NCBI GenBank assembly: GCA_964641955.1
Contig: CAZXNM010000010.1
Span: forward strand, 65 to 64,064
DNA: 64,000 bases
DNA from: an uncultured Planctomycetota bacterium
GTDB taxonomy: Bacteria; Planctomycetota; SKW154; DAOVDS01
Reading direction: 5' to 3'
The notes under the pieces: generated by a model
Database searches by the model: none
Seen by the model: only the letters and a program-made list of their open reading frames with translations
What the model was told of the DNA's origin: nothing
Shown: in pieces, positions 26,749 to 63,353 of the stretch
How positions within the stretch are numbered: the stretch's first letter is position 1
How the letters are laid out: each line of letters begins with the position of its first letter
Translations under genes and position numbers: made by a program

Positions 26749-26751
26749 TGT

Positions 26752-27436: not shown

Positions 27437-27693
27437 TTCAGATAATCACTGCCTCTCGCAGGTCCGGGATTTCAACTTCACTGCTGTTGAGGTTTATCTT
27501 CCGAATTGTTTCGTTCCTTCTCCGACAGCGTCGCGGACGGCTTCACCTGCGTATCTTCTTCAAACTCATCGCACTCAAGCACCCAGCCTTCAGGCTTTAT
27601 GTATGTACATGTTCCTCTCTTCTTGCAGCGTTCACAAATGCCCCGGGTCACAGGCAGTTACCTTCTAAAAATTCACAGAAACAGCGCCGAATT

Positions 27694-27712
27694 AAGCAAC
27701 CTGCGTGCCACT
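27694..27712 (-). promoter_or_regulatory. Sigma54 (-24/-12) promoter: minus-strand TGGCACG-cagg-TTGCT driving the operon below
   Basis: Minus-strand read of 27712..27696 is TGGCACGCAGGTTGCTT, matching the consensus TGGCACG-N4-TTGCW with GG-N10-GC spacing exact. Predicted start site near 27684, about 250 nt upstream of the first operon gene and next to an NtrC-family activator gene. Confidence 0.6.
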
Positions 27713-27737
27713 TGTGGTTAACTAAAGGAGTTGAATC

Positions 27738-27923
27738 GCAACCTCTTGCCATAAAAGGACTTGAGGTTGCACAAAGCCTTTGCCTGTCGGAGAAAGCGGG
27801 ACGACCTCTGCTGCTAGTGCAACAGCAATGCTGTCTTGCGCTGCACTAAGGCATCTAACATATTGTCAGACAAGGGCTTATGGATGTGTGCAAGGATTGA
27901 ACACTACTGATGGATTTCCATCA
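27738..27923. promoter_or_regulatory. Three palindromes upstream of the sigma54 promoter (candidate enhancer/UAS sites)
   Basis: GCAACCTC-N17-GAGGTTGC at 27738-27770, TAGTGCA-N20-TGCACTA at 27815-27848, and TGATGGA-tt-TCCATCA at 27908-27923, all 25-215 bp upstream of the -24 element. Confidence 0.4.
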
Positions 27924-27931
27924 CGCATCAG

Positions 27932-29374: not shown

Positions 29375-29429
29375 GTGCTCTGTCACCTTCCGAGGTCTTG
29401 AGGCGGGAAGCTGTTCTCTGCTGCCGGCC

Positions 29430-31274: not shown

Positions 31275-31356
31275 GAGAACTTCCTTCCCTGTTGTAGCTT
31301 ATGGCCTCACTGACATTCTACCAGTTGTTTCGCCAGCGTCAACCTTGCCTGCGAGG

Positions 31357-31392
31357 GAAATGGCGGCAGGTTGTCAAACCTGCCGCCATTTC
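31357..31392. terminator. 14-bp perfect hairpin (GAAATGGCGGCAGG-ttgtcaaa-CCTGCCGCCATTTC) between the GltB-like paralog 2 and the kinase gene
   Basis: Seen directly in sequence. A T-run follows on the plus strand only. It may act as a terminator or processing element separating the gdh-gltB2 unit from the two-component genes. Confidence 0.35.
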
Positions 31393-31420
31393 TTTATCCT
31401 TCGCTCGAAGCAGTGCCCGC

Positions 31421-33507: not shown

Positions 33508-34629
33508 TTACAGATTGTGCTTGCGGAACCCCATGGCCGCCTTCACCCTCTCCTTGGCCATGTTGATTGCCGCGTCCCTGGGCAGGTCGCCGCCCTTGAC
33601 CCTGTCGAGAAGTTCCTTCACGTTCTGCTCGATTCTGAATTTGATGAACGGGAAGACCTCGTTTTCGCTCTTGTCGTGATACTCAAGGGCACCACAGATG
33701 ACTCCGCCGGCATTGGCGATGAAGTCCGGTATGACCAGGACGCCCCTTTTGTGAAGCTCGGCCTCCGCCTCGACTGTCGCGGGAATGTTTGCGCCCTGAA
33801 CAATCAGCCTGGCCTTGACGCCCGCGACGTTGTCCATGGTGATGCAGTCCGGCCTTGCTGAAGGATAGAGAATGTCGCACTCGGCCGTGACGACATCCTC
33901 TTTCTTCGAGAGCTTCTCGGCTTTCTTGTAATCCGTGACCTTGCCGGTCTTGGCCTTGACCTTGACGAGTTCATCGACGTCGATGCCGTCGGGGTTGTAG
34001 ATGGCGCCCTTGCTGTCGCTGGCGCCGACGAGAATCGCGCCCCTCTCGTCCATGAATTGCGCCGTGGGCCGGCCCACGTTGCCGAACCCCTCGATGACGT
34101 ACTTGGAGCCTTTGATGTCTATCTTCGCCGTCGGGGCGGCCACTTCGGTCGCAATTACGCAGCCGTACGCGGTCGCGCCGATTTCATCAAGCGGAATGCC
34201 GCCGAGGCTCCTCGGCAGGCCGACGCAGCGCCCTATCTCGTCGAAGACGTACGCCATGCTGCCTTCGTCGGTGCCCATGTCCGGGCCGGGGATGTACTCG
34301 GTGACGTTGCGAATCATCCGGGCGAAGGTGCGAATCAGTTCTTCGCGCTTCTCCTCGGGCTGGGTCGGGTCGGCGATAATGCCGGATTTCCCGCCGCCGT
34401 GCTTCAGGCCAGCCGCAGCGTTCTTAAAGGTCATGCCCCTGGCGAGCCTGAAAACCTCGGTTGTCGTGACATCGGGCACCATCCTGACGCCGCCTATCGC
34501 GGGGCCCCTCGCCACGTTGTCAACGCATACTATAGCTCTCAGCCCCACTTTCGGCTCATAGAGATGCATTACTCTCATGGGACCAATATCATCCTGCAGA
34601 TTTTCGCAGATGAAATCGCAAGGTTCCAT
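33508..34629 (-). CDS. Glu/Leu/Phe/Val-family amino-acid dehydrogenase (glutamate dehydrogenase-like)
   Basis: A GGxK active-site region (KHGGGKSGI) and an NAD(P) Rossmann motif (GFGNVG), 373 aa. GGAGGTG RBS 5 nt before the ATG at 34629. Confidence 0.85.
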   Translation of the reverse strand: MEPCDFICENLQDDIGPMRVMHLYEPKVGLRAIVCVDNVARGPAIGGVRMVPDVTTTEVFRLARGMTFKNAAAGLKHGGGKSGIIADPTQPEEKREELIRTFARMIRNVTEYIPGPDMGTDEGSMAYVFDEIGRCVGLPRSLGGIPLDEIGATAYGCVIATEVAAPTAKIDIKGSKYVIEGFGNVGRPTAQFMDERGAILVGASDSKGAIYNPDGIDVDELVKVKAKTGKVTDYKKAEKLSKKEDVVTAECDILYPSARPDCITMDNVAGVKARLIVQGANIPATVEAEAELHKRGVLVIPDFIANAGGVICGALEYHDKSENEVFPFIKFRIEQNVKELLDRVKGGDLPRDAAINMAKERVKAAMGFRKHNL

Positions 34630-50678: not shown

Positions 50679-52877
50679 ATGTCACAGGTCCTTACATGTC
50701 CGAACTGTGGTGCCACCGCCGAGATAGGCGAAGGCATAGAGAGCGGGCAGTTCGTCTGCGCGAAGTGCAGGAGCACCGTGGGATTCGGGCCCGGGGCGAC
50801 AATGGTTCTCGAAAGGACAGAAGTCAACGACGACATGGTCGGCAAAACTCTCGCCGGTTACGAAGTTAAAAGCCTGCTGGGCGCGGGCGGAATGGGCAAG
50901 GTCTACCTCGCCAGGCAGATTTCCATAGACAGGCCGGTAGCGCTCAAGATACTGGCTGCCCGCCTTGCGGAGAACGACAACTTCACAAAGCGCTTCATCA
51001 GGGAAGCTCAGGCCGCGGGCAGGCTCCTGCACCCCAATCTCGTAACAGTCTTCGACGCGGGAAAGGAAGGCAACACCTACTTCTTCTCGATGGAATACGT
51101 CAAGGGCGAGCCGGCATCGAAGCTTATATTCGAGACGGGAAAGGTTGCGCCGGTCGAGGCACTCAGGATAGTCAGGCAGGTCGCCGAAGCGCTGCGCTGC
51201 GCCTTCGAGCAGGGCATAATCCACCGCGACATTAAGCCCGACAACATAATGATAACCCCCTCCGGGCTGGTGAAGCTGGCCGACCTCGGGCTGGCCAAGC
51301 ACATAGAGGGCGAGGCGGGCGAGTCGGGGCTGACCGTGGCCGGCGCGGTCATGGGCACGCCGCACTACCTCGCGCCCGAGCAGGCCCGCAACTCGAAGGA
51401 CGTAGACCAGAGGGCGGACATATACTCGCTGGGCTGCACGCTTTACCATATGCTTACAGGCTGCGTGCCCTTCTCCGGAAGCTCGACGTACGAAATTCTC
51501 AGAAAGCACGAAATAGAAGAGCCGGAATTTCCCGAGGATTCCGGAATACCGGAGCAGGTTTGCCGGCTCGTGTGCTCAATGATGGCAAAGGACCCCGAAG
51601 ATAGACCCCAGACGCCAAGCGAGGTTCTCTCCGCCATAGACCAGATACTGGGCACCCCCAGCACGGCAGCCGGCGGCACCGCGCCGCTGACAGCGGGCGG
51701 CCTGCAGACGCCAACCGGGGCGATGCGGACTCCCACACCTGTGGAGCCGGGGTCAGGCGCCGCGACGCAGCCGGCGGAACCAGCGCGCAAGAAGAAGCGC
51801 CTCAGGTGGATACTCGCGGCAGTTATAGTCGTGCTAATCCTCTTTATGATTGCCTCGTCCGCAAAAGACAGGGAATCGGCGCGCAGGTTCGACGAAGCCC
51901 GGCAGTACGCGGAGAACAATCCCGCAGACATCCAAGGCACTCTGCGCCAGTACTACGATTTCGCCGGCGATTACAAGGGAACGAAATGGGCGAACAAGGC
52001 CCACGAGGCGATTTTCGCGGCTGTACAGGCCTACGCCGGGGAACACCCGGAAGACACGGAGAACACGCTGGCCATGTACAACGACGTTGTCACAAGGCTG
52101 GAGGGAACAACCTGGGCCACCAAGGCGAAGCAGGCGATACTCGATATCGGCTACTCCCAGCTCGAAGAAGCCCTTGAGAAGGGGCCGGGCAAGCTCGACA
52201 AGCTGCTGGAGCAGCTCAAGGAAATCAAGGAAGCCACGCCGGACGAGGAGTTCGCCGGCAGCGTGGACACGTGGATAGAGAGGCTCAAGGACGCCCGCGA
52301 CAAGGGCGTGGAACTCGAATTCAGGCGCTTCAAGGAAGATGTCGAGAAGCTCTTCCGCGAGGGCAAGTGGGGCGAGGCACTGGTGCGAGTCGAGAAGTAT
52401 CCCGGCGAGAAGGGTTTAGTCAGGATTCCGGCGCCTATACAGAAGTTCATGGAAAGAACGCTGGCTATGGCCGAAATCGAGAGAACCGCAAAAGGCTTCT
52501 ACAATGCTGCATTCAAGAAGGACTGGCTCGCCGTGGCCAAATTCATCGACCCCGAACAGGTCAAGCAAGATGACAAACTCCAGGGACTGCAGTTGGCGGG
52601 AAACATCGCGCTCGCGTGGACGCGCGCCAGGGACTACCGCGTAGACCGCATAGAAGTGTCCCTGCCGGATAACAAGGCTCAAATACACGGGACCGTCAAG
52701 CGCAGAGGAATCGGAGGCCGGACGGAAGATACAGACATGCCGGTCAGCAACAATGCGATAAGGCGCAACGGTAAATGGTACATTCGCCTCGACCCGAAGC
52801 CGGAAAGAGAGCACAGGGACCCCGAGAATACGACTCCCCGCCATCCCCGAAGACCGCGGCGCACTGACTCCAAGTAG
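50679..52877 (+). CDS. Ser/Thr protein kinase with an N-terminal zinc ribbon, Pro/Ala-rich linker, transmembrane helix and extracytoplasmic C-terminal domain
   Basis: CPNCG...CAKC; kinase subdomains (GAGGMGKVY, ALKIL, HRDIKPDNIM, DLGLAK, GTPHYLAPE); transmembrane helix ILAAVIVVLILFMIA. Confidence 0.85.
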   Translation: MSQVLTCPNCGATAEIGEGIESGQFVCAKCRSTVGFGPGATMVLERTEVNDDMVGKTLAGYEVKSLLGAGGMGKVYLARQISIDRPVALKILAARLAENDNFTKRFIREAQAAGRLLHPNLVTVFDAGKEGNTYFFSMEYVKGEPASKLIFETGKVAPVEALRIVRQVAEALRCAFEQGIIHRDIKPDNIMITPSGLVKLADLGLAKHIEGEAGESGLTVAGAVMGTPHYLAPEQARNSKDVDQRADIYSLGCTLYHMLTGCVPFSGSSTYEILRKHEIEEPEFPEDSGIPEQVCRLVCSMMAKDPEDRPQTPSEVLSAIDQILGTPSTAAGGTAPLTAGGLQTPTGAMRTPTPVEPGSGAATQPAEPARKKKRLRWILAAVIVVLILFMIASSAKDRESARRFDEARQYAENNPADIQGTLRQYYDFAGDYKGTKWANKAHEAIFAAVQAYAGEHPEDTENTLAMYNDVVTRLEGTTWATKAKQAILDIGYSQLEEALEKGPGKLDKLLEQLKEIKEATPDEEFAGSVDTWIERLKDARDKGVELEFRRFKEDVEKLFREGKWGEALVRVEKYPGEKGLVRIPAPIQKFMERTLAMAEIERTAKGFYNAAFKKDWLAVAKFIDPEQVKQDDKLQGLQLAGNIALAWTRARDYRVDRIEVSLPDNKAQIHGTVKRRGIGGRTEDTDMPVSNNAIRRNGKWYIRLDPKPEREHRDPENTTPRHPRRPRRTDSK

Positions 52878-52985: not shown

Positions 52986-54431
52986 GTGGAAGAATACTAC
53001 GAAGAAAGACTGAAGAAGGCTGAAGAACTCCGGGAAAAGGGCATTGACCCTTACGGCCACAGGTTCGACGGCACCGCGCCCATAGAAGACGTTGTCGCAA
53101 ACTTCACGGAGGGCAGCGAGGAGAAAATCCGCATCGCCGGCAGGATTATGGCCATGCGAAGCCACGGCAAGGCCGCCTTCTTCGACGTGCACGACAGGAC
53201 CGGCAAGGTACAGGCATACGTCAAGAGGAACGCGATTGGCGACGAGGCTTTCGAGGTCTTCAGGATGCTCGACATCGGGGACATTATCGGCCTCGAGGGG
53301 CCGGTCGCGAAGACGCGCACGGGAGAAATTACCGTCTTCGTCGAGAAGTTCGAGCTTCTCTCCAAGGCGCTCATGCCCATGCCGGAAAAGTGGCACGGCC
53401 TGAAGGATGTCGAGCTGAGGTACCGCAGGCGATACGTTGACCTGGTCGCCAACCCGCAGTCAAAAGAAACCTTCATGCGCAGAATAAAGGCCATTGCGCG
53501 CATAAGGGAAATCCTGCACGCACGCGGGTTCATCGAGGTGGAAACCCCGGTAATGCACTCGATACCCGGCGGGGCGGCGGCGAGGCCTTTCGTTACGCAC
53601 CACAACGCGCTGGATATCGACCTGTACCTGCGCATAGCCCTCGAACTACACCTGAAGCGCCTGCTCGTCGGCGGACTCGAGCGCGTCTTCGAAATCAGCC
53701 GCGTGTTCCGCAACGAGGGCATCTCCACGAGGCATTCGCCCGAGTTCACCATGCTGGAACTCTACCAGGCTTACGGCAACTACGAAACCATGATGGAGAT
53801 AACCGAAGAGGTTTTCTCTACGCTCGCCGTCGAGGTATGCGGCAGCCACGAAGTCACTTACGGAGGCAAGACTTTCGACCTCAAGCCCCCCTACCCTAAG
53901 CGCACTTACGCCGAGCTGTTCGAAGAGCACGCGGGTTTCTCCATGAACGACGAGGCGGCAGTGAGGAAGAACGTGGCCGAACTCGAGCAGACTGTTGACG
54001 GCGGCCTCAGCGTATGGGCCATGGTTGATGTGCTCTTCGAGCACTACGTTGAGCCGAAGCTCGACGGGCCGGTCTTCGTGATTGACTATCCTGTCGCCAT
54101 CTGCCCGCTGGCGAAGCAGAAGACGGGCAGTCCCGAAATCGCCGAGCGCTTCGAGCTTTACATAGGCTCCGTCGAAGTGGCCAATGCATTCACCGAGCTT
54201 AACGACCCAGTAGAACAGAGAAAGCGCTTCGAGGAGCAGGCGCAGCACCTGGCGGACGTGACCGGCAAAATCGACGAGGACTACGTTCTCGCCCTGAGCT
54301 ACGGGATGCCGCCTGCGGGCGGGCTCGGGATAGGAATCGACCGGTTGGTCATGCTTCTCACGGACAGTCATTCGATACGCGACGTAATCCTGTTCCCGCT
54401 CCTCAAACCTCCTGACAAGGCGAAACAGTAA
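52986..54431 (+). CDS. lysS: Lysine--tRNA ligase (class II)
   Basis: N-terminal anticodon-binding OB fold (RIMAMRSHGKAAFFDVHDRTGKVQ) and class II motifs 1-3 (the last being GGLGIGIDRLVMLLT). 481 aa, ends at TAA. Confidence 0.9.
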   Translation: MEEYYEERLKKAEELREKGIDPYGHRFDGTAPIEDVVANFTEGSEEKIRIAGRIMAMRSHGKAAFFDVHDRTGKVQAYVKRNAIGDEAFEVFRMLDIGDIIGLEGPVAKTRTGEITVFVEKFELLSKALMPMPEKWHGLKDVELRYRRRYVDLVANPQSKETFMRRIKAIARIREILHARGFIEVETPVMHSIPGGAAARPFVTHHNALDIDLYLRIALELHLKRLLVGGLERVFEISRVFRNEGISTRHSPEFTMLELYQAYGNYETMMEITEEVFSTLAVEVCGSHEVTYGGKTFDLKPPYPKRTYAELFEEHAGFSMNDEAAVRKNVAELEQTVDGGLSVWAMVDVLFEHYVEPKLDGPVFVIDYPVAICPLAKQKTGSPEIAERFELYIGSVEVANAFTELNDPVEQRKRFEEQAQHLADVTGKIDEDYVLALSYGMPPAGGLGIGIDRLVMLLTDSHSIRDVILFPLLKPPDKAKQ

Positions 54432-55877
54432 GTGTACAAGCTTTTCATAGCACTCAGGTACCTCAAGCGCAGAATAATCACCTACATCGCCATTGCCGGC
54501 GTCAGCGTGGGCGTCATGGTCCTGGTAATCGTGCTGTCGGTCATGGGCGGGTTCCAGCGGGAATTCCACGAGAAAATCCGCGGCACCATGGCCGATATCA
54601 TAATCACCCAAGAAGGCTTCGCAATGAAGAACCATGACGAGATAATGAAGAAGGTGGTGAAGATACCCGGCGTCAAAGGTGTCGCGCCCTTTGTCCAGAA
54701 CATTATCCTTATCAAGGGTCTTCACATCGACTTCGGGTTCATCAAGGGCATCGACCCGCTCGAAGAGCCGAAAGTGAGTCAAATCAGGGAATACCTTCTC
54801 CGCCGGGAAGAAACGGAGATTATCGCCCGCCACGACCAGTTGGATATCTGGATTGAAGATGCCGAAAGCACCGAGAAATTGGCAAAACAGAGGGGCATTG
54901 ACCTGTCGCAAAACCCGCTATACAAATCATATTTGCAGAGGCTCGATTCCTGGCGCGTTGAGTTCGATGAGGTCAGCGACAAGCATGACAAGCTCAACGA
55001 CCGCAAGCCCATGACTGATGAGGAAATCCTGCTGCTTTTCAGCGAAAGAAGCACGGACCTCCCGGGCATAATAGTCGGCATCGAGATGTTCAAGTACTAC
55101 CAGATGGAGGTAGGAAGCGAAGTCACGCTCCTGACGGCCGCAAGCCTCGACGTCGAGGAGGCGAGCCAGCAGCGGTTCGAGGTACTCGGCGCGTTCCGGA
55201 CCGGGATGTTCGAGAACGACTTCCGCTACGTCTACGCGCAGCTATGGGAAGCCCAGCAGTTCGTCGGCGTGCCGGACTGCGTCTCCGGCGTCAGCGTGAA
55301 GCTTGACGACTACCGCAGGGCGGACGAAATCAAGCCGGTCATCGAGCGCGCCATTAACGCCGACCCATACCTCGGCCTTGCCGTGCGCACGTGGAAGGAG
55401 CAGAACAAGACGCTCCTGCAGGCCGTTCAGATGGAGAAGTGGCTGCTGGCGTTCATAATCTTTTTCATCGTGATAGTCGCCGGCTTCACCATCGTATCCA
55501 TACTGGCCATGATGGTAATCGAGAAGACCAAGGACCTCGGGATTATCAAGTCGCTCGGCGGCACCATGACCGGCATCATGAGCATATTCCTCGTCGCCGG
55601 CTCCTTCATAGGAATCGTCGGCAGCGCAATCGGCACTTTCCTCGGACTCATGTTCGTCTACAACATTAACGAGATTGCGGACCTGATAGAGGACGTTACC
55701 GGCTACCACCCCTTCCCGCCGAACGTCTATTACCTGACCGAAATCCCGACGATAGTTGACTACGGCGAGATAGCACAGGTCGTTGTTCCCACTATCGTCG
55801 TTTCCTTTATTTTCGCGCTCTACCCGGCGCTGAAGGCATCGAGGCTTAATCCCGTCGAGGCGCTGCGTTATGAGTAA
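54432..55877 (+). CDS. FtsX-family ABC-transporter permease (LolC/LolE-like)
   Basis: GTG start directly after the lysS stop. N-terminal helix, a large periplasmic MacB-like domain, then three C-terminal helices (FtsX). 481 aa. Confidence 0.7.
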   Translation: MYKLFIALRYLKRRIITYIAIAGVSVGVMVLVIVLSVMGGFQREFHEKIRGTMADIIITQEGFAMKNHDEIMKKVVKIPGVKGVAPFVQNIILIKGLHIDFGFIKGIDPLEEPKVSQIREYLLRREETEIIARHDQLDIWIEDAESTEKLAKQRGIDLSQNPLYKSYLQRLDSWRVEFDEVSDKHDKLNDRKPMTDEEILLLFSERSTDLPGIIVGIEMFKYYQMEVGSEVTLLTAASLDVEEASQQRFEVLGAFRTGMFENDFRYVYAQLWEAQQFVGVPDCVSGVSVKLDDYRRADEIKPVIERAINADPYLGLAVRTWKEQNKTLLQAVQMEKWLLAFIIFFIVIVAGFTIVSILAMMVIEKTKDLGIIKSLGGTMTGIMSIFLVAGSFIGIVGSAIGTFLGLMFVYNINEIADLIEDVTGYHPFPPNVYYLTEIPTIVDYGEIAQVVVPTIVVSFIFALYPALKASRLNPVEALRYE

Positions 55878-56622
55878 GTCGGATGCCCCATCGCAGGCGA
55901 AAGGCGAGGAGCTGGTTCGGGCCACAGGCCTGAAGAAAAGCTACTTCGCCGGCAAGCGCGAGCTGCCGGTCGTGAAGGGCGTCAATATGAATATATCGCG
56001 CGGCGAAGTGCTCATGATATGCGGCCCGAGCGGCGCCGGCAAGAGCACTCTGCTGCATATGCTGGGCCTTCTGGACCCGCCGTCGGCGGGCGATGTCTTC
56101 TACGAGGGGGAAAACCTCACGTCGGCTCCACCCCGGCGCCAGTCTTCCGTTCGCAACCGCCGGATAGGCTTCGTGTTCCAATTCTATCACCTTCTGCCCG
56201 ACCTCGACGTCGTCGAGAATACGCTGCTTCCGCTCATGATAAGGGAGTCTACCTTCTCCTGGTTCGGGGCAAGGCGCCGCTACCGAGAGAAGGTCGAGAA
56301 GGTGCTCGCAAGCATGGGGCTGGGCGAGCGCCTCAAGCACAGGCCTTCTCAGCTTTCCGGCGGCGAGAGGCAGCGCGTGGCTATAGCGCGGGCGCTTATT
56401 AACGACCCGGAAGTCCTCTTCTGCGACGAGCCCACGGGCAATCTCGACACCAGAACTGCCGAGGAGATTCTCAAGGTGCTCTGGCGAATCAGGGAAGAGT
56501 TCAGCCAGACGCTCGTGGTCGTAACCCACAATCGCACCTTGGCCGAGCAGGGCTCGCGGCGCCTGAACATGATTGACGGCAAACTCTACCGCCCCTCAGA
56601 GCGCGACCTGCCATCCAGTTGA
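55870..56622 (+). CDS. lolD: ABC-transporter ATP-binding protein (LolD-like)
   Basis: Walker A GPSGAGKST, signature LSGGERQRVAIARAL, Walker B LFCDEPTGNLD. Overlaps the permease gene by 8 nt. Confidence 0.8.
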   Translation: MSKSDAPSQAKGEELVRATGLKKSYFAGKRELPVVKGVNMNISRGEVLMICGPSGAGKSTLLHMLGLLDPPSAGDVFYEGENLTSAPPRRQSSVRNRRIGFVFQFYHLLPDLDVVENTLLPLMIRESTFSWFGARRRYREKVEKVLASMGLGERLKHRPSQLSGGERQRVAIARALINDPEVLFCDEPTGNLDTRTAEEILKVLWRIREEFSQTLVVVTHNRTLAEQGSRRLNMIDGKLYRPSERDLPSS

Positions 56623-56779: not shown

Positions 56780-57205
56780 GTGAAAAAGCTGTTGGCAGCC
56801 GTCGCGCTAATCGTCATCCCCGTGCTGGTGCATGCCGATGTCGTGGAACTGACTACGGGCGAGAAATTCGAAGGCAAGATAATTTCCAGGGATGAGTCGG
56901 GCGTTACGCTCAAAGTGCCGTTCGGCAAGATAATAATCGAAAACAAGTTCATCAAGTCCGTCCAGGAAGAAAAGACCGGCGGCGACAAGAAAGAAGATGC
57001 CGCGGAAAAAAAAGGCAACGACCAGGACTCGAAAGAGACGGAACTCGAGGAGAGGAAGCTCAAGACGCGCGTATCGCGCTGGATGAACAGCCGGAACAAG
57101 CTCATCTGCAGCAAGTGCGGCGGCGATGGCAAGAAAAAGTGCACGGCGTGCGGAGGGACCGGCCAGCAGTACGCAGACCCGTATAACAAGACGACGCGCG
57201 GGTGA
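56780..57205 (+). CDS. Secreted protein: N-terminal beta-module plus two DnaJ-type CxxCxGxG zinc-finger motifs; apparently the 5' fragment of a gene split by in-frame TGA codons
   Basis: GTG start with GGAGG at spacing 7. Signal peptide MKKLLAAVALIVIPVLVHA, then DVVELTTGEKFEGKII..., then CSKCGGDGKKKCTACGGTG. TGA at 57203-57205 and again at 57212-57214, with the same frame continuing afterwards. Confidence 0.4.
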   Translation: MKKLLAAVALIVIPVLVHADVVELTTGEKFEGKIISRDESGVTLKVPFGKIIIENKFIKSVQEEKTGGDKKEDAAEKKGNDQDSKETELEERKLKTRVSRWMNSRNKLICSKCGGDGKKKCTACGGTGQQYADPYNKTTRG

Positions 57206-57268: not shown

Positions 57269-57595
57269 ATGAAGTACCTGAAGGTGTGTTTCTGGGAAAT
57301 GAAAACCAAGAAGTTCCGCGACGAGAAGACCGCATCCGCCGGAAAGGTTGACAAGTACCTGGACACACTGGCCCAGGAACTGCGCGGCGGCTCGAACGAG
57401 CACTCCTCGCATACGAAGCCTTTCCAGACCTATAAGATAGACGAGGTGACAGTCAAGGGTGATCGGGGCGTATCCAAGGTGACCGTAACCTACGAAGCCG
57501 CAGCGGGTTCCACAACCACGGAAGAAATCAAGTGGAAGAAAGTGGGAAGCCAGTGGTATCTGGCTTCTCCCTGCGACGAAGAGGACGACGAGTAG
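57269..57595 (+). CDS. Probable 3' continuation (C-terminal beta-rich domain) of the 56780 gene
   Basis: Same reading frame as 56780..57205. The intervening in-frame codons encode a third CKSCGGTG motif before the ATG at 57269. The product ends with the acidic tail DEEDDE. Confidence 0.35.
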   Translation: MKYLKVCFWEMKTKKFRDEKTASAGKVDKYLDTLAQELRGGSNEHSSHTKPFQTYKIDEVTVKGDRGVSKVTVTYEAAAGSTTTEEIKWKKVGSQWYLASPCDEEDDE

Positions 57596-57658
57596 CCGAA
57601 AGCAATTGCTGCGCCGTGGCAGCTCCGGTGGAATGAGACAAACGGAGGATGAGACCGG

Positions 57659-59170
57659 ATGGTCTGTCTGAAGGTCAAAGACGGTCCACATAAGGGCGTA
57701 ATCTACTCGCTCGAGGGGCACATCGTTACGATAGGCCGCGACAACGAGGCCCAGATACAGATTATGGACCAGGGCGTCAGCCGCCGCCATGCCGAGATTT
57801 TCGCCGTCGGCGAGATGTACTTCATACGCGACCTCGGCTCCCGAAACGGCACCTACGTCAACGAAGAGCGCATATCGGAAGAGTTGCTAAGGGAAGGAGA
57901 CCGGGTCAGAATAGGCCAGACGACTCTCGTTTTCGAAGGCAGGGCCCCGACCACGGGGGACCTGTCTCCGCAGATAGAGTTCTCCCACATCGACGCCGAG
58001 CCGAGCGCGACCATGGAGTTCCGTTTCGGCGTCATGGACTTCGCCGATATCGAAGAGCCCGACGAGACGAGGCGCACGGCGGTCACCGAATCCCAGAAAT
58101 CCAAGCAGCTCTCCGTGCTGTATCAGGTTTCGCGCGCCGTTTCGAACGAAACGGACTCCAAGAAGATGCTTTCCAGGATTGTAGTCCTCTCTTCGGAGGC
58201 AATCAACGCCGACCACGGATTCATATTCGTGAAAGACGACGAGTCATCCAAGCCCGAACTCAACCTCGAAGCAAGCTTCGAGAAGGAAGGCAGCTCCACG
58301 CCCGCCGTATCGACGAGCATAATTAAGCGCGTCGTCAAGTACGGCCGCGCCGTGCTCACTTCCGACGCGGGCACCGACGAGCGCTTCGGGGATAAGAGTT
58401 CCGTCATTATTCAGGGTGTCAAGTCGGTTATCTGCGCTCCGCTCGCGGCAATGGACAAGATAATCGGCGTGGTCTATCTCTCGAGCTCCGACGCCAGAGT
58501 GCAGTTCTCAACGGGCGACCTCGAACTTATCACGGCAATCGGCATACAGACCGGCATGGCCTTGAACGGCATTAGCATCGCCACGGAACAGCGCAAGATG
58601 TTTACCTCCATAATATCGACTCTTGTCAACGCTGTCGAGATGCGCGACCCCGCGCTGAAAGGGCGTTCGGCCCGCGTGTCGCGATTCGCCAGGGCAATGG
58701 CAAGAGCGCTCGACTTGCCTGCAACCGATGCGAACTCGGTCGCGCTCGCCGCTCTGCTCCATAATATCGGACGGCTGTCCATCTCGGAAGCCGACATCAT
58801 CCAGTCGCAGTCCGCCGCGACGCGAGAGGAGACTCTTGAATACAAGCAGGCCATGCGCTCGCAGGAACTGCTGCTGAACATCACGGGCCTTCGGGAGATT
58901 CTGCCCGCGGTCAAGCATTCTTTCGAGAAATTCGACGGCAGCGGATACCCGGACGGACTGGCCGGCGAAGAGATACCACTTCACGCCAGAATCATTGCCG
59001 CAGCCCACGCCTTCGACGAGATACTGCAGGGTTCCCCCGGCGAAAAACTCTCTCCGAAAGAAGCACTGTTCCAGTTGAACACCCTCTCGCAGCAGGGACA
59101 AATCGACCCCGACCTTGTGAAAGCTCTGGCAATAGCTTACCGGATGGGCCTGCTGGACATCGGCGAATGA
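57659..59170 (+). CDS. FHA-GAF-HD-GYP multidomain signalling protein with a degenerate HD-GYP domain
   Basis: FHA (TIGRDNEAQIQIMDQGVSRRHAEI...RDLGSRNGTYVN); GAF (residues ~170-300); HD-GYP with GYP intact (FDGSGYPDGL) but GHSxRV changed to GRSARV and HD changed to HN (LLHNIGRL). Confidence 0.75.
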   Translation: MVCLKVKDGPHKGVIYSLEGHIVTIGRDNEAQIQIMDQGVSRRHAEIFAVGEMYFIRDLGSRNGTYVNEERISEELLREGDRVRIGQTTLVFEGRAPTTGDLSPQIEFSHIDAEPSATMEFRFGVMDFADIEEPDETRRTAVTESQKSKQLSVLYQVSRAVSNETDSKKMLSRIVVLSSEAINADHGFIFVKDDESSKPELNLEASFEKEGSSTPAVSTSIIKRVVKYGRAVLTSDAGTDERFGDKSSVIIQGVKSVICAPLAAMDKIIGVVYLSSSDARVQFSTGDLELITAIGIQTGMALNGISIATEQRKMFTSIISTLVNAVEMRDPALKGRSARVSRFARAMARALDLPATDANSVALAALLHNIGRLSISEADIIQSQSAATREETLEYKQAMRSQELLLNITGLREILPAVKHSFEKFDGSGYPDGLAGEEIPLHARIIAAAHAFDEILQGSPGEKLSPKEALFQLNTLSQQGQIDPDLVKALAIAYRMGLLDIGE

Positions 59171-59261: not shown

Positions 59262-61769
59262 TTGATTACAGGTTTCGGCGGCGCATCGCTTGCGCAGGCC
59301 ATTACCGATATCGTGCGTGTCTCCCCGGATGCCGAATACACTATAATAACCGCGCGTCCCCGTAGAGAACACGCCCTGCGTAAAATCCTCGAAGCCGAAG
59401 GTCTTGGAGACACACGGACGACAACTTTTACAGGATTTGCCGAGGAACTTATCCGGCAGTTCGGGTCCGGCGCAATCCCGGAAGCGGCAAAGATGCTGCT
59501 TTTCCTGAGAGCATTAAAAGACGCAGACCTGCCCGGCGAGTGGCGCGCATACACAGGCACAGCCCAAGGCGCGCAAACCCTCTTCGACATCCTAGACAGC
59601 CTTCGGTCCGCATCTCTACGGAGCGCGGACCTCGCGAAGCTGAAGGGCAAGCCGCCGGCGGCCAACTCTTTGGCGAAGCTCCTGAAAAACTATGAACAGC
59701 TTCTTCGTGAAGGGAAATTTTTCGACAATCATGACCTTATTGAGAAAGCGGCAGACGCAGTCCAGGCCGGGCAGGCGGTACTCACCCGCCGTTACCTGTT
59801 CGATTGCATCCACGATGCAGCCCCGGACGAGTTCAGGCTGGCGGTGGCCATCGCGCAGGCCGACATCGACTGCGTTTTCCTCTGCGACCCGTCGGCACCG
59901 CCGCCCCCGGCCCGCGCAGTCATTATCCGGACAGACAGGGAACTCGCGGCAAATCTGCCGGACCTGAAGTCCAAGACCGCACCCCGGCCACCGGGATACG
60001 AACTCGGCAGAAGTATCGCCGAAGGCTCTTTGGAAGGAAAGTCTGAGTTGCTTCAGTTCAATGATTTTGCCTCAGAATGCCGCGGTCTGGCCAGACGCGC
60101 GCGAGACATCGAGCTGGAAGAGGGCCTTTCCGAAAAAGATATCGCCTTCTTCTTTCAGGATTGGTCGGTGCAGGCCGACCTTCTGCGCTACGAACTGCAA
60201 AGAGCAGACTTATTGACAGAAGACATGCCGGCGCATCCGGCCCGTACAGCGCTCCTGCGCGAAATGAGGTTGATTACAGACCTGCTGGCCGAGCCGGACA
60301 GGATGGACCCGAGAGCCAGGATTGTCTCAGCCGGGCTGGCTGCAGATGAGTCACAGCTTGAGGGATTGCTTGCATCCATCCTGCCGCGCCGCGAGACTGA
60401 TTCCCTGCCTGAGCTTATAGCAAACGCCATTGAATCCTTACTTCCCGCCACTTCGGCTGCACAGAAAGAAGCGCTCGACAGATACATAGAGACAGCGCGG
60501 CTATTTAATGATTTTTTCGCGCCGGGAGCAGGCCCGGCGGCTCTGCGCGATTTTGCCTCAGCCGTTGATTTGCTCCAGACAAAGGCATGGCCCGGTGACT
60601 TGCTTCCTCGGGCCTTTCTTTCGCCTGACGCTCCTCCTGCTCGCTTTTACGATACCGTGTTCCTTCCGTGCCTTCTTTCCGAGACCCGGACAGGCGCGCC
60701 GCTCCCGCCCGGCATCCGGGAGCTAATGCCCGGATTTTCGCACCTGCTGCCGGGGCCCGTGCAACTGCCGGACGTGGCAAGCGCACAACTCCGCGAGCGC
60801 TGGGAGGCTGGCAGCGCCGCTGCAAGCGCCGCGAGGGTCATAATGTCTTTTCACCGGCAGTCGAGCGGCAGGCATATCGAGCCTGCTATCTGGCTCAGGG
60901 ACAAAGCCGGCTCAGCCCGACCAGGTCCGGAGGCGGCATGCAGCGGACCTCGCCGACCGCTTCCAGCGAAGCCCGTCGCAGACAGAGTCCCTGTGCCGCA
61001 AGTGCTCAGCGTCACGAGCATAAAGCAGTATTCGACGTGTCCGCACCGGTTTTTCCTCAACCGGATATTGCAAATAGCGCCGCCGCCCAGCGAACGCATG
61101 AAACTGGGCTCGCTCATTCACAGGGTCCTGGCGAGATTTCACTCTCCCGGAGAAACCGACTTCTCGCCAGAACGGCTCGCCCATCTTCTTGCCGAAGAGA
61201 CAGAAAGAGAAACCCTTCTTCCCGCGTCGCAGGAAGAGGCGCAAACTCTCCTGAGCGCCTACGCCGCGGATGCTACAACCGGCTCCAGACGAACGCTCAA
61301 GACCGAACACTCCTTCAGGATGGACTTCGCCGGCACGCGCGTATCAGGTCGGATAGACCGGATAGTTGCCGCGCCGGGAGGCATCAGGATAATCGACTAC
61401 AAGATATCCGGGTCCGGCAAGGTCAGGAAACACAGGAACGCGGTAATGGACAGGCTCGACGACGTGCAGTTGCCCCTGTATGTGCTTGCTGCCCGCGAGG
61501 CGGGCATGAAAGTGGCCTGCTTTTCCTATCTCTATCTCAACTACGAGGGCACCGGTCGGCCGGCCGAAGTCACGCTGCGCCTGGACGAAAGCGATGCTCA
61601 GGACTCGATAGGAGAGGCTGCGCTCCAGCAGTCCCTCGAACGAATCGAAAACGTGGTCGCCGAGATACTCGCGGGAAAGGAAACGTACGAGAGAGGCGAG
61701 AATGCGCCGTGCCGCGAGTCGCCCGCACGCTGCGACTACGCCGCCATGTGCCCCCTGATGACGAGTTGA
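59262..61769 (+). CDS. AddB-like protein: C-terminal PD-(D/E)XK nuclease with an Fe-S staple and a helicase-like N-terminal region lacking a Walker A motif
   Basis: C-terminal CPHRFFLNRIL ... GRIDRI ... IIDYK ... CRESPARCDYAAMCP follows the AddB/Cas4-type iron-staple nuclease layout. No GKT/S P-loop in the N-terminal 500 aa. Confidence 0.5.
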   Translation: MITGFGGASLAQAITDIVRVSPDAEYTIITARPRREHALRKILEAEGLGDTRTTTFTGFAEELIRQFGSGAIPEAAKMLLFLRALKDADLPGEWRAYTGTAQGAQTLFDILDSLRSASLRSADLAKLKGKPPAANSLAKLLKNYEQLLREGKFFDNHDLIEKAADAVQAGQAVLTRRYLFDCIHDAAPDEFRLAVAIAQADIDCVFLCDPSAPPPPARAVIIRTDRELAANLPDLKSKTAPRPPGYELGRSIAEGSLEGKSELLQFNDFASECRGLARRARDIELEEGLSEKDIAFFFQDWSVQADLLRYELQRADLLTEDMPAHPARTALLREMRLITDLLAEPDRMDPRARIVSAGLAADESQLEGLLASILPRRETDSLPELIANAIESLLPATSAAQKEALDRYIETARLFNDFFAPGAGPAALRDFASAVDLLQTKAWPGDLLPRAFLSPDAPPARFYDTVFLPCLLSETRTGAPLPPGIRELMPGFSHLLPGPVQLPDVASAQLRERWEAGSAAASAARVIMSFHRQSSGRHIEPAIWLRDKAGSARPGPEAACSGPRRPLPAKPVADRVPVPQVLSVTSIKQYSTCPHRFFLNRILQIAPPPSERMKLGSLIHRVLARFHSPGETDFSPERLAHLLAEETERETLLPASQEEAQTLLSAYAADATTGSRRTLKTEHSFRMDFAGTRVSGRIDRIVAAPGGIRIIDYKISGSGKVRKHRNAVMDRLDDVQLPLYVLAAREAGMKVACFSYLYLNYEGTGRPAEVTLRLDESDAQDSIGEAALQQSLERIENVVAEILAGKETYERGENAPCRESPARCDYAAMCPLMTS

Positions 61770-61775: not shown

Positions 61776-63353
61776 CTATTCCTGCCGCAGCGCGATTTGA
61801 AGTCCCTTGACCGAGTAACTTTCCCTGACTTCGATCATCTCGGCCGCCGCGTTGATGTAGGTTCTGGGCCGTTCCTCGAGCGTCAGCGCCCTGACTTCCA
61901 CCGAATACGTGCCAGCGGGGATGTCGTCAATCTTGAAAATCCCCCTCGAATCCCTGGATATTTTCTGTTTTATAAGTTTCGGCTTCCTGCCCGGTTCGGT
62001 CGGATTGTCATAAAGAATGACGTTGAATTCCTTTATCGGCACGTCTGCGAGCACGCGTCCCTCCACGGAGCCGCCCTTGCTCAATTCGAGCCGAAGGTCC
62101 ACGCTGTTTGCGGGCACCTGCCGCTTGATAAGCAGTATGTACCCCGGCGCCCTGACGCTCATGTTGACCACATCTTCGGTAAAGCCGCTTATCGAAAACT
62201 CGCCGTTCTTGTCGGTGCGGGTAGTCTCATAGCTGCCCTTGCCGCTCACCGTGACCGTGGCACCGACGACCGGCTCGTCCACGTAGTTGACAACGATGCC
62301 CGAAATGACGTTGCCGCGCTCGAGCCTGAAATCGATGCCTTCCGTCAGGCGGCTCTCTACAATCGAGACGTTGGTTTTTGTGGAGTCCACGTAGCCGCGG
62401 GCTATAACCCTGATATTCACGAGGCCGCCTTTCAGCCCGTTGAGTTCGTACCTGCCGTCCTTGTCGGTATTCGTGCCCTTGTTAAAGAAGACCGTGCTGT
62501 CAGCCGAAGAGAGGAATATCTGTATGCCTGCAAGCGGCTGGTCGTTTTCGTCAGTAACAATTCCGTTGACTGACCCGCCGAGTTCGAGCACCAGCTTGCG
62601 CGTCGTCTGCTCGCCGGCCTCTATGTTCACCGCAATCCGCTCGCCGGGCAGGTAGTCGGCATGCGTGGCGGTGGCGCGGTACTCGCCGGGCGGGGCGCCG
62701 TCAATCTCGAAGCGTCCATCCTCGTCAGTCGTCACCCGGAAGACGCGTTCCAGCCCGCTGCCGCTTTCGACCGGTCCCGAAGCGTAGAGGATAACCTTGG
62801 CCCCGGCTACTGGCTTCTCGTCCCTGGCTTCCACGACAAAGCCGAAAAAGGTTCCTGCAGGCACAAGCTCGAAGTCCACTCCGGTCAGCGTTACAAGCTT
62901 CTCGACCGTAAGGTCCTGCCTTACGACCGATGCATAGCCTTTCTTGTCGGCCTGGACAGCGTAGCGACCGGGAGGCAGTTTCTTCAGAAGATACTTGCCA
63001 TCCTCCATGGTGAAGGTGGATTTCACCGCATCGCGCGAGTATATCGCCGTAACCATGACATCCGGGAGAGGTTTGCCGTTTTCATCCACCACCATGCCTT
63101 CGATGGCCCCTCCGTCCTGAACGTCGCGAAGAAGCTTGATTTCCGGCGCTTCTATCTGTATGGGGACGTGGTCCGGCGGACCCGGCACCGGCGGCTCATT
63201 CGGCTTCTTCGGGGGGTCAATCTCCGGTCCCGGCGGGGGTGCAACCACATTCGCCTCCGAAGAAGGAACGTGCAGGAGCCAGATTCCGAGCACGACGAGC
63301 GCGGTTACGCCCGTAGAGATGACAACAACGAGAATTCTCTCTTTCCTCGTCAT
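61776..63353 (-). CDS. Membrane-anchored protein with four carboxypeptidase-regulatory-like (CarboxypepD_reg) beta-sandwich repeats
   Basis: N-terminal transmembrane helix (ILVVVISTGVTALVVLGIWLL), a Pro-rich linker, and repeats of the form G.V.DENG.PL..V.V......T.TD.DG.Y.L..L..G.Y. Confidence 0.6.
   Translation of the reverse strand: MTRKERILVVVISTGVTALVVLGIWLLHVPSSEANVVAPPPGPEIDPPKKPNEPPVPGPPDHVPIQIEAPEIKLLRDVQDGGAIEGMVVDENGKPLPDVMVTAIYSRDAVKSTFTMEDGKYLLKKLPPGRYAVQADKKGYASVVRQDLTVEKLVTLTGVDFELVPAGTFFGFVVEARDEKPVAGAKVILYASGPVESGSGLERVFRVTTDEDGRFEIDGAPPGEYRATATHADYLPGERIAVNIEAGEQTTRKLVLELGGSVNGIVTDENDQPLAGIQIFLSSADSTVFFNKGTNTDKDGRYELNGLKGGLVNIRVIARGYVDSTKTNVSIVESRLTEGIDFRLERGNVISGIVVNYVDEPVVGATVTVSGKGSYETTRTDKNGEFSISGFTEDVVNMSVRAPGYILLIKRQVPANSVDLRLELSKGGSVEGRVLADVPIKEFNVILYDNPTEPGRKPKLIKQKISRDSRGIFKIDDIPAGTYSVEVRALTLEERPRTYINAAAEMIEVRESYSVKGLQIALRQE

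What the first reader, a model, noticed from the sequence alone, without database searches (positions are those of the whole stretch)
57659..59170. FHA-GAF-HD-GYP protein with a degenerate HD-GYP catalytic core (likely non-catalytic c-di-GMP sensor)
The GYP signature is intact (FDGSGYPDGL). However the metal-ligand motifs are altered: GHSxRV becomes GRSARV, HD becomes HN (LLHNIGRL), and HHE is degenerate (HSFE). An N-terminal FHA domain implies phospho-Thr-dependent partner binding. The window also encodes a Ser/Thr kinase at 50679..52877. This suggests a c-di-GMP or phosphorylation-integrating adaptor rather than a phosphodiesterase.
Basis: partly seen in the sequence, partly recalled or inferred. 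Interest (0 to 1): 0.55.

Follow-up and report, generated by a model that had tools for sequence, protein, structure and literature searches.

The report
Phospho-switched FHA-GAF protein with dead HD-GYP
This gene encodes a signalling protein whose c-di-GMP-degrading (HD-GYP) domain has lost nearly all its catalytic metal-binding residues yet is still strongly conserved, so it most likely works as a phosphorylation-controlled adaptor, not as an enzyme or a classical c-di-GMP sensor.

Summary
ORF 57659..59170 (+) encodes a 503-aa FHA–linker–GAF–HD-GYP protein. Only 1 of PmGH's 8 metal ligands survives (H368). The catalytic Lys is Arg, and the base-recognition residues R314/Y316/K317 are S/G/E.

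The domain is still folded (pLDDT 82–97) and under strong purifying selection (dN/dS 0.04–0.06). It is a maintained pseudoenzyme, not decay.

Homologs form a mainly Planctomycetota family. About two-thirds of diverse representatives keep an intact active site. In four sampled distant loci the gene usually lies downstream of the same FtsX–ABC genes, so the query lineage looks like a derived, inactivated ortholog.

"Non-catalytic" is well supported. "c-di-GMP sensor" is not. The residues used by PmGH and by the metal-free receptor DvhD are mostly absent, and the GYP tyrosine varies among close relatives.

The FHA domain is the most constrained part, with all pThr-binding residues kept. The disordered linker carries a Thr (T118, in 82/83 relatives) with a hydrophobic +3 residue. 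That suggests a GarA/DgcB-like self-phospho-switch.

Known kinds, new combination; moderate interest.

The parts
57659..59170 (+). Complete ORF (503 aa plus stop): FHA - linker - GAF - degenerate HD-GYP
   Evidence: 100% coverage by 503-aa homologs
57643..57647 (+). Shine-Dalgarno GGAGG about 12 nt upstream of the ATG
   Evidence: read directly from the sequence
57659..57943 (+). FHA domain (aa 1-95). The pThr-binding residues R27, S41, H44 and N63 are intact
   Evidence: gapless 41% identity to GarA; rmsd 0.7 A to GarA FHA; dN/dS 0.02; >=96% kept in 136 representatives
57944..58099 (+). Linker predicted to be disordered (aa 96-147; pLDDT <50 for 105-141)
58007..58030 (+). Conserved linker motif A117-T118-M-E-F121-R-F-G. 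It is a candidate phospho-Thr site with a hydrophobic +3 residue (T118 codon 58010-58012)
   Evidence: T in 82/83; column conservation 0.97 vs about 0.15 background; PSSM significant in 33/124 independent representatives
58100..58573 (+). GAF domain (aa 148-305), ligand unknown. Its C-terminal helix (285-327) runs on into the HD-GYP domain as in PmGH
58574..59167 (+). Degenerate HD-GYP domain (aa 306-503), folded and under purifying selection
   Evidence: pLDDT 82-97; 4mcw E 4.5e-19; dN/dS 0.04-0.06
58664..58666 (+). R336 codon, replacing metal ligand H189 of PmGH
58760..58765 (+). H368-N369, the 'HD' motif changed to 'HN'. H368 is the only metal ligand retained
58847..58849 (+). Q397 codon, replacing metal ligand H250
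58916..58927 (+). H420-S421-F422-E423, the 'HHE' motif changed to 'HSFE' (H276->S, H277->F). S421 and the aromatic at 422 are conserved in the clade
58934..58951 (+). DGSGYP (aa 426-431), the intact GYP loop. D426, G427, G429 and P431 are near-invariant family-wide, but Y430 varies within the clade
59006..59008 (+). H450 codon, replacing metal ligand D305 (R in most clade members)
59033..59044 (+). S459-P-G461-E462, replacing the R314-P-Y316-K317 c-di-GMP base-recognition motif
50679..52877 (+). Candidate upstream kinase: a Hanks-type Ser/Thr kinase (732 aa) with an N-terminal zinc ribbon, a T/P-rich segment and one TM helix. The functional link is inferred, not shown
   Evidence: position conserved in the clade

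Best explanation
The gene encodes a soluble signalling protein with four parts: an FHA domain, a disordered linker, a GAF domain and an HD-GYP domain. It descends from a family of FHA-GAF-HD-GYP phosphodiesterases found mainly in Planctomycetota. In this lineage the HD-GYP domain has become a pseudoenzyme. It keeps the fold and the GYP loop but has lost 7 of 8 metal ligands, the catalytic Lys and the guanine-recognition residues. It therefore cannot hydrolyse c-di-GMP by the known metal-dependent mechanism, and it is unlikely to bind c-di-GMP in either structurally known mode. The working parts are the FHA domain and a conserved Thr (T118, with F121 at +3) in the linker. The proposed mechanism is as follows. 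A Hanks-type Ser/Thr kinase, possibly the membrane kinase encoded 5 kb upstream, phosphorylates T118. The protein's own FHA domain then binds pT118, either in cis or across a dimer, as in GarA/OdhI and Bdellovibrio DgcB. This rearranges the GAF-HD-GYP module, which passes the signal on through protein-protein contacts instead of through nucleotide turnover. Shown here: the architecture, the loss of ligands, the fold, purifying selection, and conservation of the FHA residues and of T118. Inferred: phosphorylation of T118, FHA-pT118 binding, the identity of the kinase, and the output partner.
For: Architecture and fold. Ligand loss. PmGH single-Ala mutants of H189, D222, H250, H276 and H277 are inactive, and K225A had a similar impact (PMC4159591). 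The ligand columns sit at the 99th percentile of conservation in canonical relatives. In the query clade they are no better conserved than random columns (0.61 vs 0.65, P=0.36). The domain is maintained: 64-91% identity within the clade, on a par with GAF, and dN/dS 0.04-0.06. Ancestral state: 91 of 136 diverse representatives keep >=6/7 ligands. Canonical and degenerate members share a locus context: FtsX-ABC upstream in three of four distant loci, with LysRS also present in two. FHA: R27, S41, H44 and N63 are invariant or near-invariant, the GarA motifs are identical, and dN/dS is lowest at 0.02. Linker: T118 in 82/83 sequences, never Ser, with +3 being I/F/L/Y/V, in a segment with pLDDT 33-43. 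The motif is found without alignment in 33 of 124 further representatives, both canonical and degenerate. Precedent for an FHA that binds its own pThr tail on a c-di-GMP enzyme: DgcB, pT14 with V17 at +3 (PMC6733907).
Against: No biochemical data exist for any member of this family. The T118 motif alternates hydrophobic residues (M-E-F-R-F). It could therefore be a beta-strand used for dimer or partner contacts with no phosphorylation involved. The motif is absent or undetectable in about 73% of more distant representatives. Kinases near distant family members are not orthologs of the window's kinase, and Planctomycetota encode many such kinases, so proximity is weak evidence. The output partner is unknown. 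dS is about 1, close to saturation, so the dN/dS values are approximate. Some residues in the remodelled pocket are conserved (H420, S421, F/Y422, mostly R372), so an unknown ligand is not excluded.
Confidence: 0.6

Rival explanations
1. Metal-independent c-di-GMP (or cGAMP) receptor. The degenerate HD-GYP pocket would still bind the dinucleotide, as in D. vulgaris DvhD, and the protein would couple c-di-GMP level to FHA-mediated interactions.
For: There is a precedent. DvhD is a degenerate HD-GYP (SQ for HD, MN for HH) that binds c-di-GMP with Kd about 99 nM without metals or hydrolysis. It is a significant sequence and fold match. The query keeps the GYP Tyr (Y430), an Arg at the HDxGK Lys position (R372) and the hydrophobic clamp residues L367 and I455. 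The pocket also gains R336.
Against: The DvhD contacts R650, Y652 and Y523 correspond to S459, G461 and A332 in the query. PmGH R314 and K317 are likewise lost, and the K235/KPGxL loop is replaced. The GYP Tyr H-bonds a phosphodiester in both known structures, yet it is Y in only 7 of 13 clade members (H, S, C and V elsewhere). F422 replaces a metal-ligand His and may fill the cavity. No GGDEF motif and no c-di-GMP riboswitch occur in the 64-kb window, which is weak evidence.
Confidence: 0.2
2. A receptor for a different small ligand. The remodelled HD-GYP pocket (H420, S421, F422, R336, R372, H450) or the GAF domain would bind some other metabolite or nucleotide that gates the protein.
For: H420-S421-(F/Y)422 is invariant in the clade. 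The GAF domain has several near-invariant polar residues family-wide (S218, R230, D240, R242, S248, C259, Y273). GAF domains of related proteins bind cNMPs, for example cAMP in Tlr0485.
Against: Most former pocket positions vary within the clade: 336 is R/S/T/L/H, 450 is H/R/Y, 459 is S/G/E/A/I. No ligand-specific motif was identified. The ligand of the PmGH GAF domain is itself unknown.
Confidence: 0.12
3. Still an enzyme. The domain would hydrolyse c-di-GMP or another phosphodiester using a reduced or alternative metal site (H368, H420, H450, N369, D453).
For: Three His residues (368, 420, 450) and D453 lie near the former site. HD-GYP metal sites are known to be heterogeneous (references cited).
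Against: Single-Ala mutants of five of the residues changed here abolish PmGH activity, and K225A had a similar effect. H368 and H450 are not conserved even among close relatives: H/Y/Q at 368 and H/R/Y at 450. DvhD has fewer losses and is still inactive with all metals tested.
Confidence: 0.03
4. A decaying remnant. The HD-GYP domain would be functionless baggage drifting toward loss, and only the FHA-GAF part would matter.
For: The former ligand positions evolve like average positions, and the GYP Tyr is variable.
Against: dN/dS of the HD-GYP domain is 0.04-0.06, lower than GAF. Identity within the clade is 64-91%. All 12 full-length clade homologs keep a 503-512 aa protein that covers >=99% of the query. 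AF2 confidence is high.
Confidence: 0.05

Closest known systems
PmGH (Persephonella marina GAF-HD-GYP phosphodiesterase, PDB 4MCW)
   Same: Same GAF-helix-HD-GYP core. HMMER E 2e-23 over aa 148-465. Foldseek E 4.5e-19, TM 0.72 over 367 columns. The GYP loop and structural D308 (D453) are kept.
   Different: PmGH has no FHA domain or linker. It has 8 metal ligands forming a tri-iron centre and is an active PDE, whereas the query keeps 1 of 8. K225 is Arg in the query, and R314/Y316/K317 and the KPGxL loop are lost.
DvhD (Desulfovibrio vulgaris dCache-PAS-HD-GYP c-di-GMP receptor, PDB 9RBZ/9RC0; PMC13090378)
   Same: A degenerate, non-hydrolysing HD-GYP that lacks the HD and HH motifs. Significant sequence and fold match.
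   Different: DvhD keeps H189, H250, the HDxGK Lys, R650/Y652 (the RxY motif) and Y523, and it binds c-di-GMP at about 99 nM. The query has R, Q, R, S/G and A at these positions. DvhD is a membrane receptor with a periplasmic dCache domain, while the query is soluble with FHA-GAF input.
PA2572 (P. aeruginosa REC-'YN-GYP')
   Same: Asn replaces the Asp of the HD motif. It has no detectable c-di-GMP PDE activity but still has a regulatory role, and it acts through protein-protein interaction (PMC3411652).
   Different: Its input domain is REC (His-Asp phosphorelay) rather than FHA-GAF (Ser/Thr phosphorylation). It belongs to a different organism group, and the extent of its ligand loss was not compared here.
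DgcB (Bdellovibrio bacteriovorus FHA-GGDEF, PDB 6HBZ/6HC0/6HC1; PMC6733907)
   Same: An FHA domain fused to a c-di-GMP-family module. The FHA binds the protein's own phosphorylated Thr (pT14, V17 at +3) in a disordered segment, and this switches the output. It appears among the FHA fold and sequence matches.
   Different: The output is an active diguanylate cyclase. The pThr motif is N-terminal to the FHA rather than in an FHA-GAF linker, and there is no GAF domain.
GarA / OdhI (actinobacterial FHA regulators)
   Same: Closest FHA domain: 41% identity with no gaps, identical GR, SRRH and NGT motifs, rmsd 0.7 A. From my own knowledge, these are the paradigm of FHA proteins switched off by binding their own pThr tail.
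   Different: They are single-domain proteins that regulate TCA-cycle and glutamate enzymes. They have no GAF or HD-GYP domain.

Membership tests
HD-GYP domain (fold/sequence family, Pfam HD_5 PF13487 / HD PF01966) | Significant match to the family HMM and the 7-helix HD-GYP fold | tested here: met
   HD_5 E 1.9e-31, 109.5 bits vs cutoff 27.2. Foldseek to 4mcw E 4.5e-19, to 9rbz 2e-10 and to 4r8z 1.5e-9.
HD-GYP domain (fold/sequence family) | HHExxDGxGYP loop with the GYP motif | tested here: met
   The query has HSFEKFDGSGYP. E423, D426, G427, G429, Y430 and P431 are present, while the HH pair is lost.
Catalytically active HD-GYP c-di-GMP phosphodiesterase | Seven core metal ligands (PmGH H189, H221, D222, H250, H276, H277, D305), with E185 as an eighth in trinuclear enzymes | tested here: not met
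   The query has R336, H368, N369, Q397, S421, F422, H450 and A332, so 1 of 8 is kept.
Catalytically active HD-GYP c-di-GMP phosphodiesterase | Catalytic/stabilising pair D183 and K225 (the HDxGK Lys) | tested here: not met
   D330 is kept, but K225 is R372 (M or H in some clade members). K225A had a similar impact on PmGH activity as the metal-ligand mutants.
Catalytically active HD-GYP c-di-GMP phosphodiesterase | Measured hydrolysis of c-di-GMP | not testable with these tools
   Needs purified protein.
Degenerate HD-GYP c-di-GMP receptor (DvhD type) | Loss of the HD and HH metal ligands together with a retained fold | tested here: met
Degenerate HD-GYP c-di-GMP receptor (DvhD type) | Retention of the nucleotide contacts Y621, K582, R650, Y652, Y523, L577, M646 (E668 could not be mapped) | tested here: not met
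   Y430 is kept, K582 is R372, R650 is S459, Y652 is G461, Y523 is A332, and L367 and I455 are kept. Y430 varies within the clade.
Degenerate HD-GYP c-di-GMP receptor (DvhD type) | Measured c-di-GMP binding | not testable with these tools
   Needs ITC, DRaCALA or nanoDSF.
FHA domain (phosphothreonine-binding module) | HMM match and beta-sandwich fold | tested here: met
   PF00498 E 4e-21. rmsd 0.6-0.7 A to GarA FHA.
FHA domain (phosphothreonine-binding module) | Conserved phosphate-binding residues: GR (R27), SxxH (S41, H44) and NG (N63) | tested here: met
   All are present. They are invariant or >=90% in 83 relatives and >=96% in 136 representatives, and identical to the GarA motifs.
Self-pThr-switched FHA proteins (GarA/OdhI/DgcB type) | Conserved Thr with a hydrophobic +3 residue in a disordered segment of the same polypeptide | tested here: met
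   T118 in 82/83 sequences, with +3 I/F/L/Y/V, in a segment with pLDDT <50. It is a subfamily feature, significant in 33 of 124 further representatives.
Self-pThr-switched FHA proteins (GarA/OdhI/DgcB type) | Phosphorylation of that Thr by a Ser/Thr kinase, and phospho-dependent binding to its own FHA domain | not testable with these tools
   Needs a kinase assay, phosphoproteomics and peptide ITC.
GAF domain | HMM match and fold | tested here: met
   PF01590 E 4e-13. It aligns with the PmGH GAF domain.
Anti-phage defence system component (PADLOC) | Match to any defence-system protein model | tested here: not met
   No PADLOC family matches the query. The kinase hits are generic kinase-domain matches.

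The most novel reading that the evidence does not exclude
The FHA-GAF-HD-GYP family would be a natural series in which one phosphodiesterase gene, sitting in a recurrent FtsX-ABC context, has turned into non-enzymes more than once. One large group has the recurring pattern D222N/H250R/H277R/D305N ('HHNRHRN'), which swaps metal-binding acids and histidines for Asn and Arg. That group could be a new, metal-free, arginine-lined receptor for a cyclic dinucleotide or another anionic ligand. The query's clade would have gone further and become a pure phospho-Thr-gated scaffold, with its HD-GYP domain serving as a protein-interaction module and T118 as the switch. This would be a previously undescribed link between Hanks-kinase signalling and HD-GYP pseudoenzymes in Planctomycetota.
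Probability: 0.2. Interest if true: 0.6.

Novelty: new variant of a known kind. Interest (0 to 1): 0.42.

Why it matters
Degenerate GGDEF and EAL domains are well-established receptors and adaptors. Non-catalytic HD-GYP domains are much less well understood: PA2572 was studied genetically, and DvhD was solved only in 2026. This locus adds a distinct case. It is a pseudo-HD-GYP under strong purifying selection that lacks the nucleotide contacts of both known binding modes. It is fused to a highly constrained FHA domain and carries a candidate self-phosphorylation motif. Intact-enzyme relatives sit in the same gene context in other lineages, so the family is a tractable natural experiment on how a second-messenger enzyme becomes a scaffold. 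It also connects Ser/Thr-kinase signalling to the c-di-GMP toolkit in Planctomycetota, where such kinases are abundant, and where neither a literature search nor the HD-GYP census turned up any mention of an FHA-HD-GYP protein. The predictions are concrete and cheap to test: no PDE activity, no or weak c-di-GMP binding, and pT118-FHA binding.

Tried and rejected
1. Realignment to rescue the ligands. The HMMER pairwise alignment and two MAFFT alignments give the same mapping, and the Foldseek fold match supports the homology. My first table wrongly took D453 as D305. Using the numbering in the PmGH paper showed that D453 is the structural D308 and that D305 is H450.

2. MAFFT placement of the short DvhD fragment around L577/K582 was wrong. 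I used the HMMER alignment for those two residues.

3. Paralogous FHA, GAF or HD-GYP copies in the window: none found by tblastn.

4. c-di-GMP machinery in the window: no GGDEF motif and no riboswitch or other Rfam family.

5. Defence-system reading: no PADLOC hit for the query.

6. Orthology of neighbouring kinases across distant loci: rejected. Only the kinase domains match, at 33-37% identity.

7. T118 as a feature of the whole superfamily: rejected. It marks a subfamily.

8. Biopython neighbour-joining tree: timed out and was replaced by average-linkage clustering.

9. Geometric analysis of the AF2 pocket: not possible because model coordinates are not exposed. For the same reason I did not run a second AF2 job on FHA plus linker, since pLDDT alone could not show docking in the pThr cleft.

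10. Genome-level taxonomy: the only genome hit is an unclassified 'bacterium' MAG. The Planctomycetota assignment is inferred from named homologs at <=49% identity.
Full report
**1. Observation**

The ORF at 57659..59170 (+) is real. It is 503 aa with an ATG start and is preceded by a GGAGG Shine-Dalgarno at 57643-57647. Pfam finds FHA (aa 23-86, E 4e-21), GAF (169-302, E 4e-13) and HD_5/HD-GYP (322-486, E 1.9e-31).

The ORF at 50679..52877 does encode a protein-kinase domain (E 1.4e-53).

**2. How degenerate is the HD-GYP domain?**

The best solved relative is PmGH (4mcw), which matches across the GAF and HD-GYP domains (E 2e-23). The PmGH paper lists the metal ligands as E185, H189, H221, D222, H250, H276, H277 and D305. 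It reports that single Ala substitutions abolish activity for all of them except E185 and D305, and that D183, K225 and D308 mutants behave similarly (PMC4159591).

After correcting for the +6 offset of the PDB chain, the query residues are:

- E185 → A332
- H189 → R336
- H221 → H368 (kept)
- D222 → N369
- H250 → Q397
- H276 → S421
- H277 → F422
- D305 → H450

In addition D183 is D330, K225 is R372 and D308 is D453. So one ligand of eight is kept.

The residues that H-bond the guanine in PmGH are R314 and K317. They lie in a segment that aligns without gaps (D453 to P460 matches D308 to P315) and are S459 and E462 in the query. Y316 is G461. The K235/KPGxL loop is replaced by QSQSA.

The pairwise alignment and both family alignments give the same mapping, and the fold match agrees with the homology.

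**3. Is the domain decaying or maintained?**

AlphaFold2 with an 83-sequence alignment gives mean pLDDT 83.5, and 82-97 across the HD-GYP domain. The predicted helix order matches PmGH. Foldseek returns 4mcw first (E 4.5e-19, TM 0.72 over 367 columns).

Within the query's clade (13 sequences at 49-90% identity), the HD-GYP domain is 51-91% identical to the query, which is similar to the GAF domain.

Nei-Gojobori dN/dS against the two closest relatives gives:

| Domain | dN/dS |
|---|---|
| FHA | 0.02 |
| Linker | 0.06-0.07 |
| GAF | 0.09-0.10 |
| HD-GYP | 0.04-0.06 |

dS is about 1, so these values are approximate.

The former ligand columns are no longer special in this clade. Their mean pairwise identity is 0.61 against a domain mean of 0.65 (P = 0.36). 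In canonical relatives the same columns sit at the 99th percentile. The HD-GYP domain is thus a maintained pseudoenzyme whose constraint no longer lies in the metal site.

**4. The family**

The 120 best homologs all share the FHA-GAF-HD-GYP architecture, and nearly all of those that carry a taxon name are named as Planctomycetota MAGs. Among these 120, 21 keep the six invariant ligands and a large group has the recurring pattern H-H-N-R-H-R-N. I selected that group partly by its pattern, so its internal conservation follows partly from how it was chosen.

An exhaustive search of 1.84 billion representatives found 1,265 proteins at E <= 1e-30. Of 136 full-length representatives, 60 keep 7/7 ligands, 31 keep 6/7 and 45 keep 5 or fewer. 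The intact enzyme is therefore the ancestral and majority state, and the query's clade is among the most eroded.

Even the canonical members lack the RxY(K) and KPGxL substrate motifs. The substrate of the intact relatives is therefore not certain either.

**5. Genomic context**

In the query's clade the gene order is fixed:

ATP-grasp(-) | Ser/Thr kinase | LysRS | FtsX permease | ABC ATPase | two small ORFs (absent in one locus) | this gene | PD-(D/E)XK protein | CarboxypepD_reg repeats(-) | Peptidase_C25(-)

Four distant loci were sampled:

- A canonical member (P0108): STK, LysRS, FtsX, ABC, FtsX, an aminotransferase, then the gene.
- A second canonical member (P0086): LysRS, FtsX, ABC, an aminotransferase, then the gene.
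- An HHNRHRN member (P0054): FtsX, ABC, then the gene, with two kinases downstream.
- Another HHNRHRN member (P0035): this context is missing, but a kinase lies downstream.

This suggests positional orthology between intact and degenerate genes, though it rests on only four distant loci. The neighbouring kinases in distant loci are not orthologs of the window's kinase, because only the kinase domains match at 33-37% identity. The kinase link is therefore suggestive only.

The window's kinase has an N-terminal zinc ribbon, a Thr/Pro-rich segment, one TM helix and an extracytoplasmic C-terminal region.

**6. The FHA domain and a candidate phospho-switch**

The FHA domain is the most constrained part of the protein. 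R27, S41, H44 and N63 are the canonical phosphate-binding residues; this identification comes from established FHA knowledge. They are invariant or at least 90% conserved in 83 relatives and at least 96% conserved in 136 representatives.

The domain aligns without gaps to GarA at about 41% identity, and the GR, SRRH and NGT motifs are identical. The rmsd to GarA FHA is 0.7 Å.

The FHA-GAF linker is variable, with column identity of about 0.15, and AlphaFold leaves it disordered (pLDDT 33-43). It contains one conserved island, (A/S)-T118-x-(E/T)-Φ-(R/K)-Φ-(D/G). T118 is present in 82 of 83 sequences and is never Ser. The +3 residue is I, F, L, Y or V.

A PSSM scan on 124 representatives that were not used to build it finds the motif in 33, at P <= 0.01 against shuffled linkers. 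These comprise 14 of 89 canonical and 19 of 35 degenerate members. The motif therefore marks a subfamily and predates the catalytic decay.

pT-x-x-hydrophobic is the classic FHA ligand pattern. The DgcB structure shows the same logic, with pT14 and V17 at +3 from the protein's own disordered tail. Its authors align that tail with the self-binding tails of GarA and OdhI.

**7. c-di-GMP sensor?**

There is now a precedent for a metal-free HD-GYP receptor. DvhD (PDB 9rbz) binds c-di-GMP with Kd about 99 nM and does not hydrolyse it. Its contacts, with the query equivalents, are:

- Y621 (GYP Tyr) → Y430
- K582 → R372
- R650 → S459
- Y652 → G461
- Y523 → A332
- L577 → L367
- M646 → I455
- E668 could not be mapped

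. The Tyr contacts a phosphodiester in both PmGH and DvhD, yet it is Y in only 7 of 13 clade members.

The window contains no GGDEF motif and no riboswitch. c-di-GMP binding in either known mode is therefore unlikely, but it is not excluded.

**8. Verdict**

- Non-catalytic: yes.
- Phospho-dependent adaptor: yes, and now with a specific candidate site.
- c-di-GMP sensor: not supported.

**Closest knowns.** PmGH shares the core fold. DvhD and PA2572 are non-catalytic HD-GYPs. DgcB, GarA and OdhI are FHA proteins with a self-pThr switch.

**Prior description.** The HD-GYP census of Galperin & Chou does not mention FHA. Literature searches found no description of an FHA-HD-GYP protein.

**Novelty and interest.** This is a new variant of known kinds. 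Interest is moderate, because everything about the mechanism beyond the sequence evidence is inference.

Noticed in passing
related proteins P0014, P0016, P0019-P0026, P0028, P0029, P0032-P0035, P0054 and others (not in the window): A large group of FHA-GAF-HD-GYP homologs shares the pattern H189/H221 kept, D222N, H250R, H276 kept, H277R, D305N, with an intact GYP motif. The two acidic ligands become Asn and two His ligands become Arg. This could be a metal-free, positively charged pocket for an anionic ligand.
   Followed up: partly
window 50679..52877 (+): A Hanks-type Ser/Thr kinase with an N-terminal CPNCG...CAKC zinc ribbon, a Thr/Pro-rich juxtamembrane segment, one TM helix and a 320-aa extracytoplasmic region with no Pfam match. 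An 11/12 sigma-70-like promoter lies at 50623-50650. The kinase's position is conserved in the query's clade.
   Followed up: partly
window 56780..57205 (+) and 57269..57595 (+): Two small ORFs lie directly upstream of the finding. The first has a signal-peptide-like N-terminus and a C-terminal CxxCxGxG zinc-finger-like motif (a BSD2_CRD hit below the Pfam cutoff). The second has no family match. Both are present in relatives L005, L006 and L013 but absent in L003/L004.
   Followed up: partly
window 59262..61769 (+): An 835-aa protein with a TTG start and a C-terminal PD-(D/E)XK / Cas4-like nuclease domain, resembling AddB. No adjacent AddA/UvrD-type helicase gene is visible. It lies directly downstream of the finding throughout the query's clade.
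   Followed up: no
window 52986..56622 (+); also L009, L010, L011: An FtsX-type permease followed by an ABC ATPase (Lol-like), preceded by LysRS in the query clade and in L010/L011, lies upstream of FHA-GAF-HD-GYP genes in lineages only 36-45% identical to the query. This is either a functional link or deep conservation of a housekeeping cluster.
   Followed up: partly
window about 26000..33000 (-): A lower-GC stretch (0.52-0.55 against 0.58-0.67 elsewhere). It holds a dCache-HAMP histidine kinase (29430..31274), an NtrC-type sigma-54 response regulator (27932..29464) and a glutamate-synthase-like gene (31421..33010), next to a glutamate dehydrogenase (33508..34629). GarA-type FHA proteins regulate glutamate enzymes in actinobacteria, but no link to this case was tested.
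   Followed up: no
window 61776..63353 (-) and beyond (L002 15181-18192): A protein made of repeated CarboxypepD_reg/transthyretin-like domains, followed by a roughly 1000-aa Peptidase_C25 (gingipain-family) protein. Both are conserved next to the locus in the query's clade.
   Followed up: no
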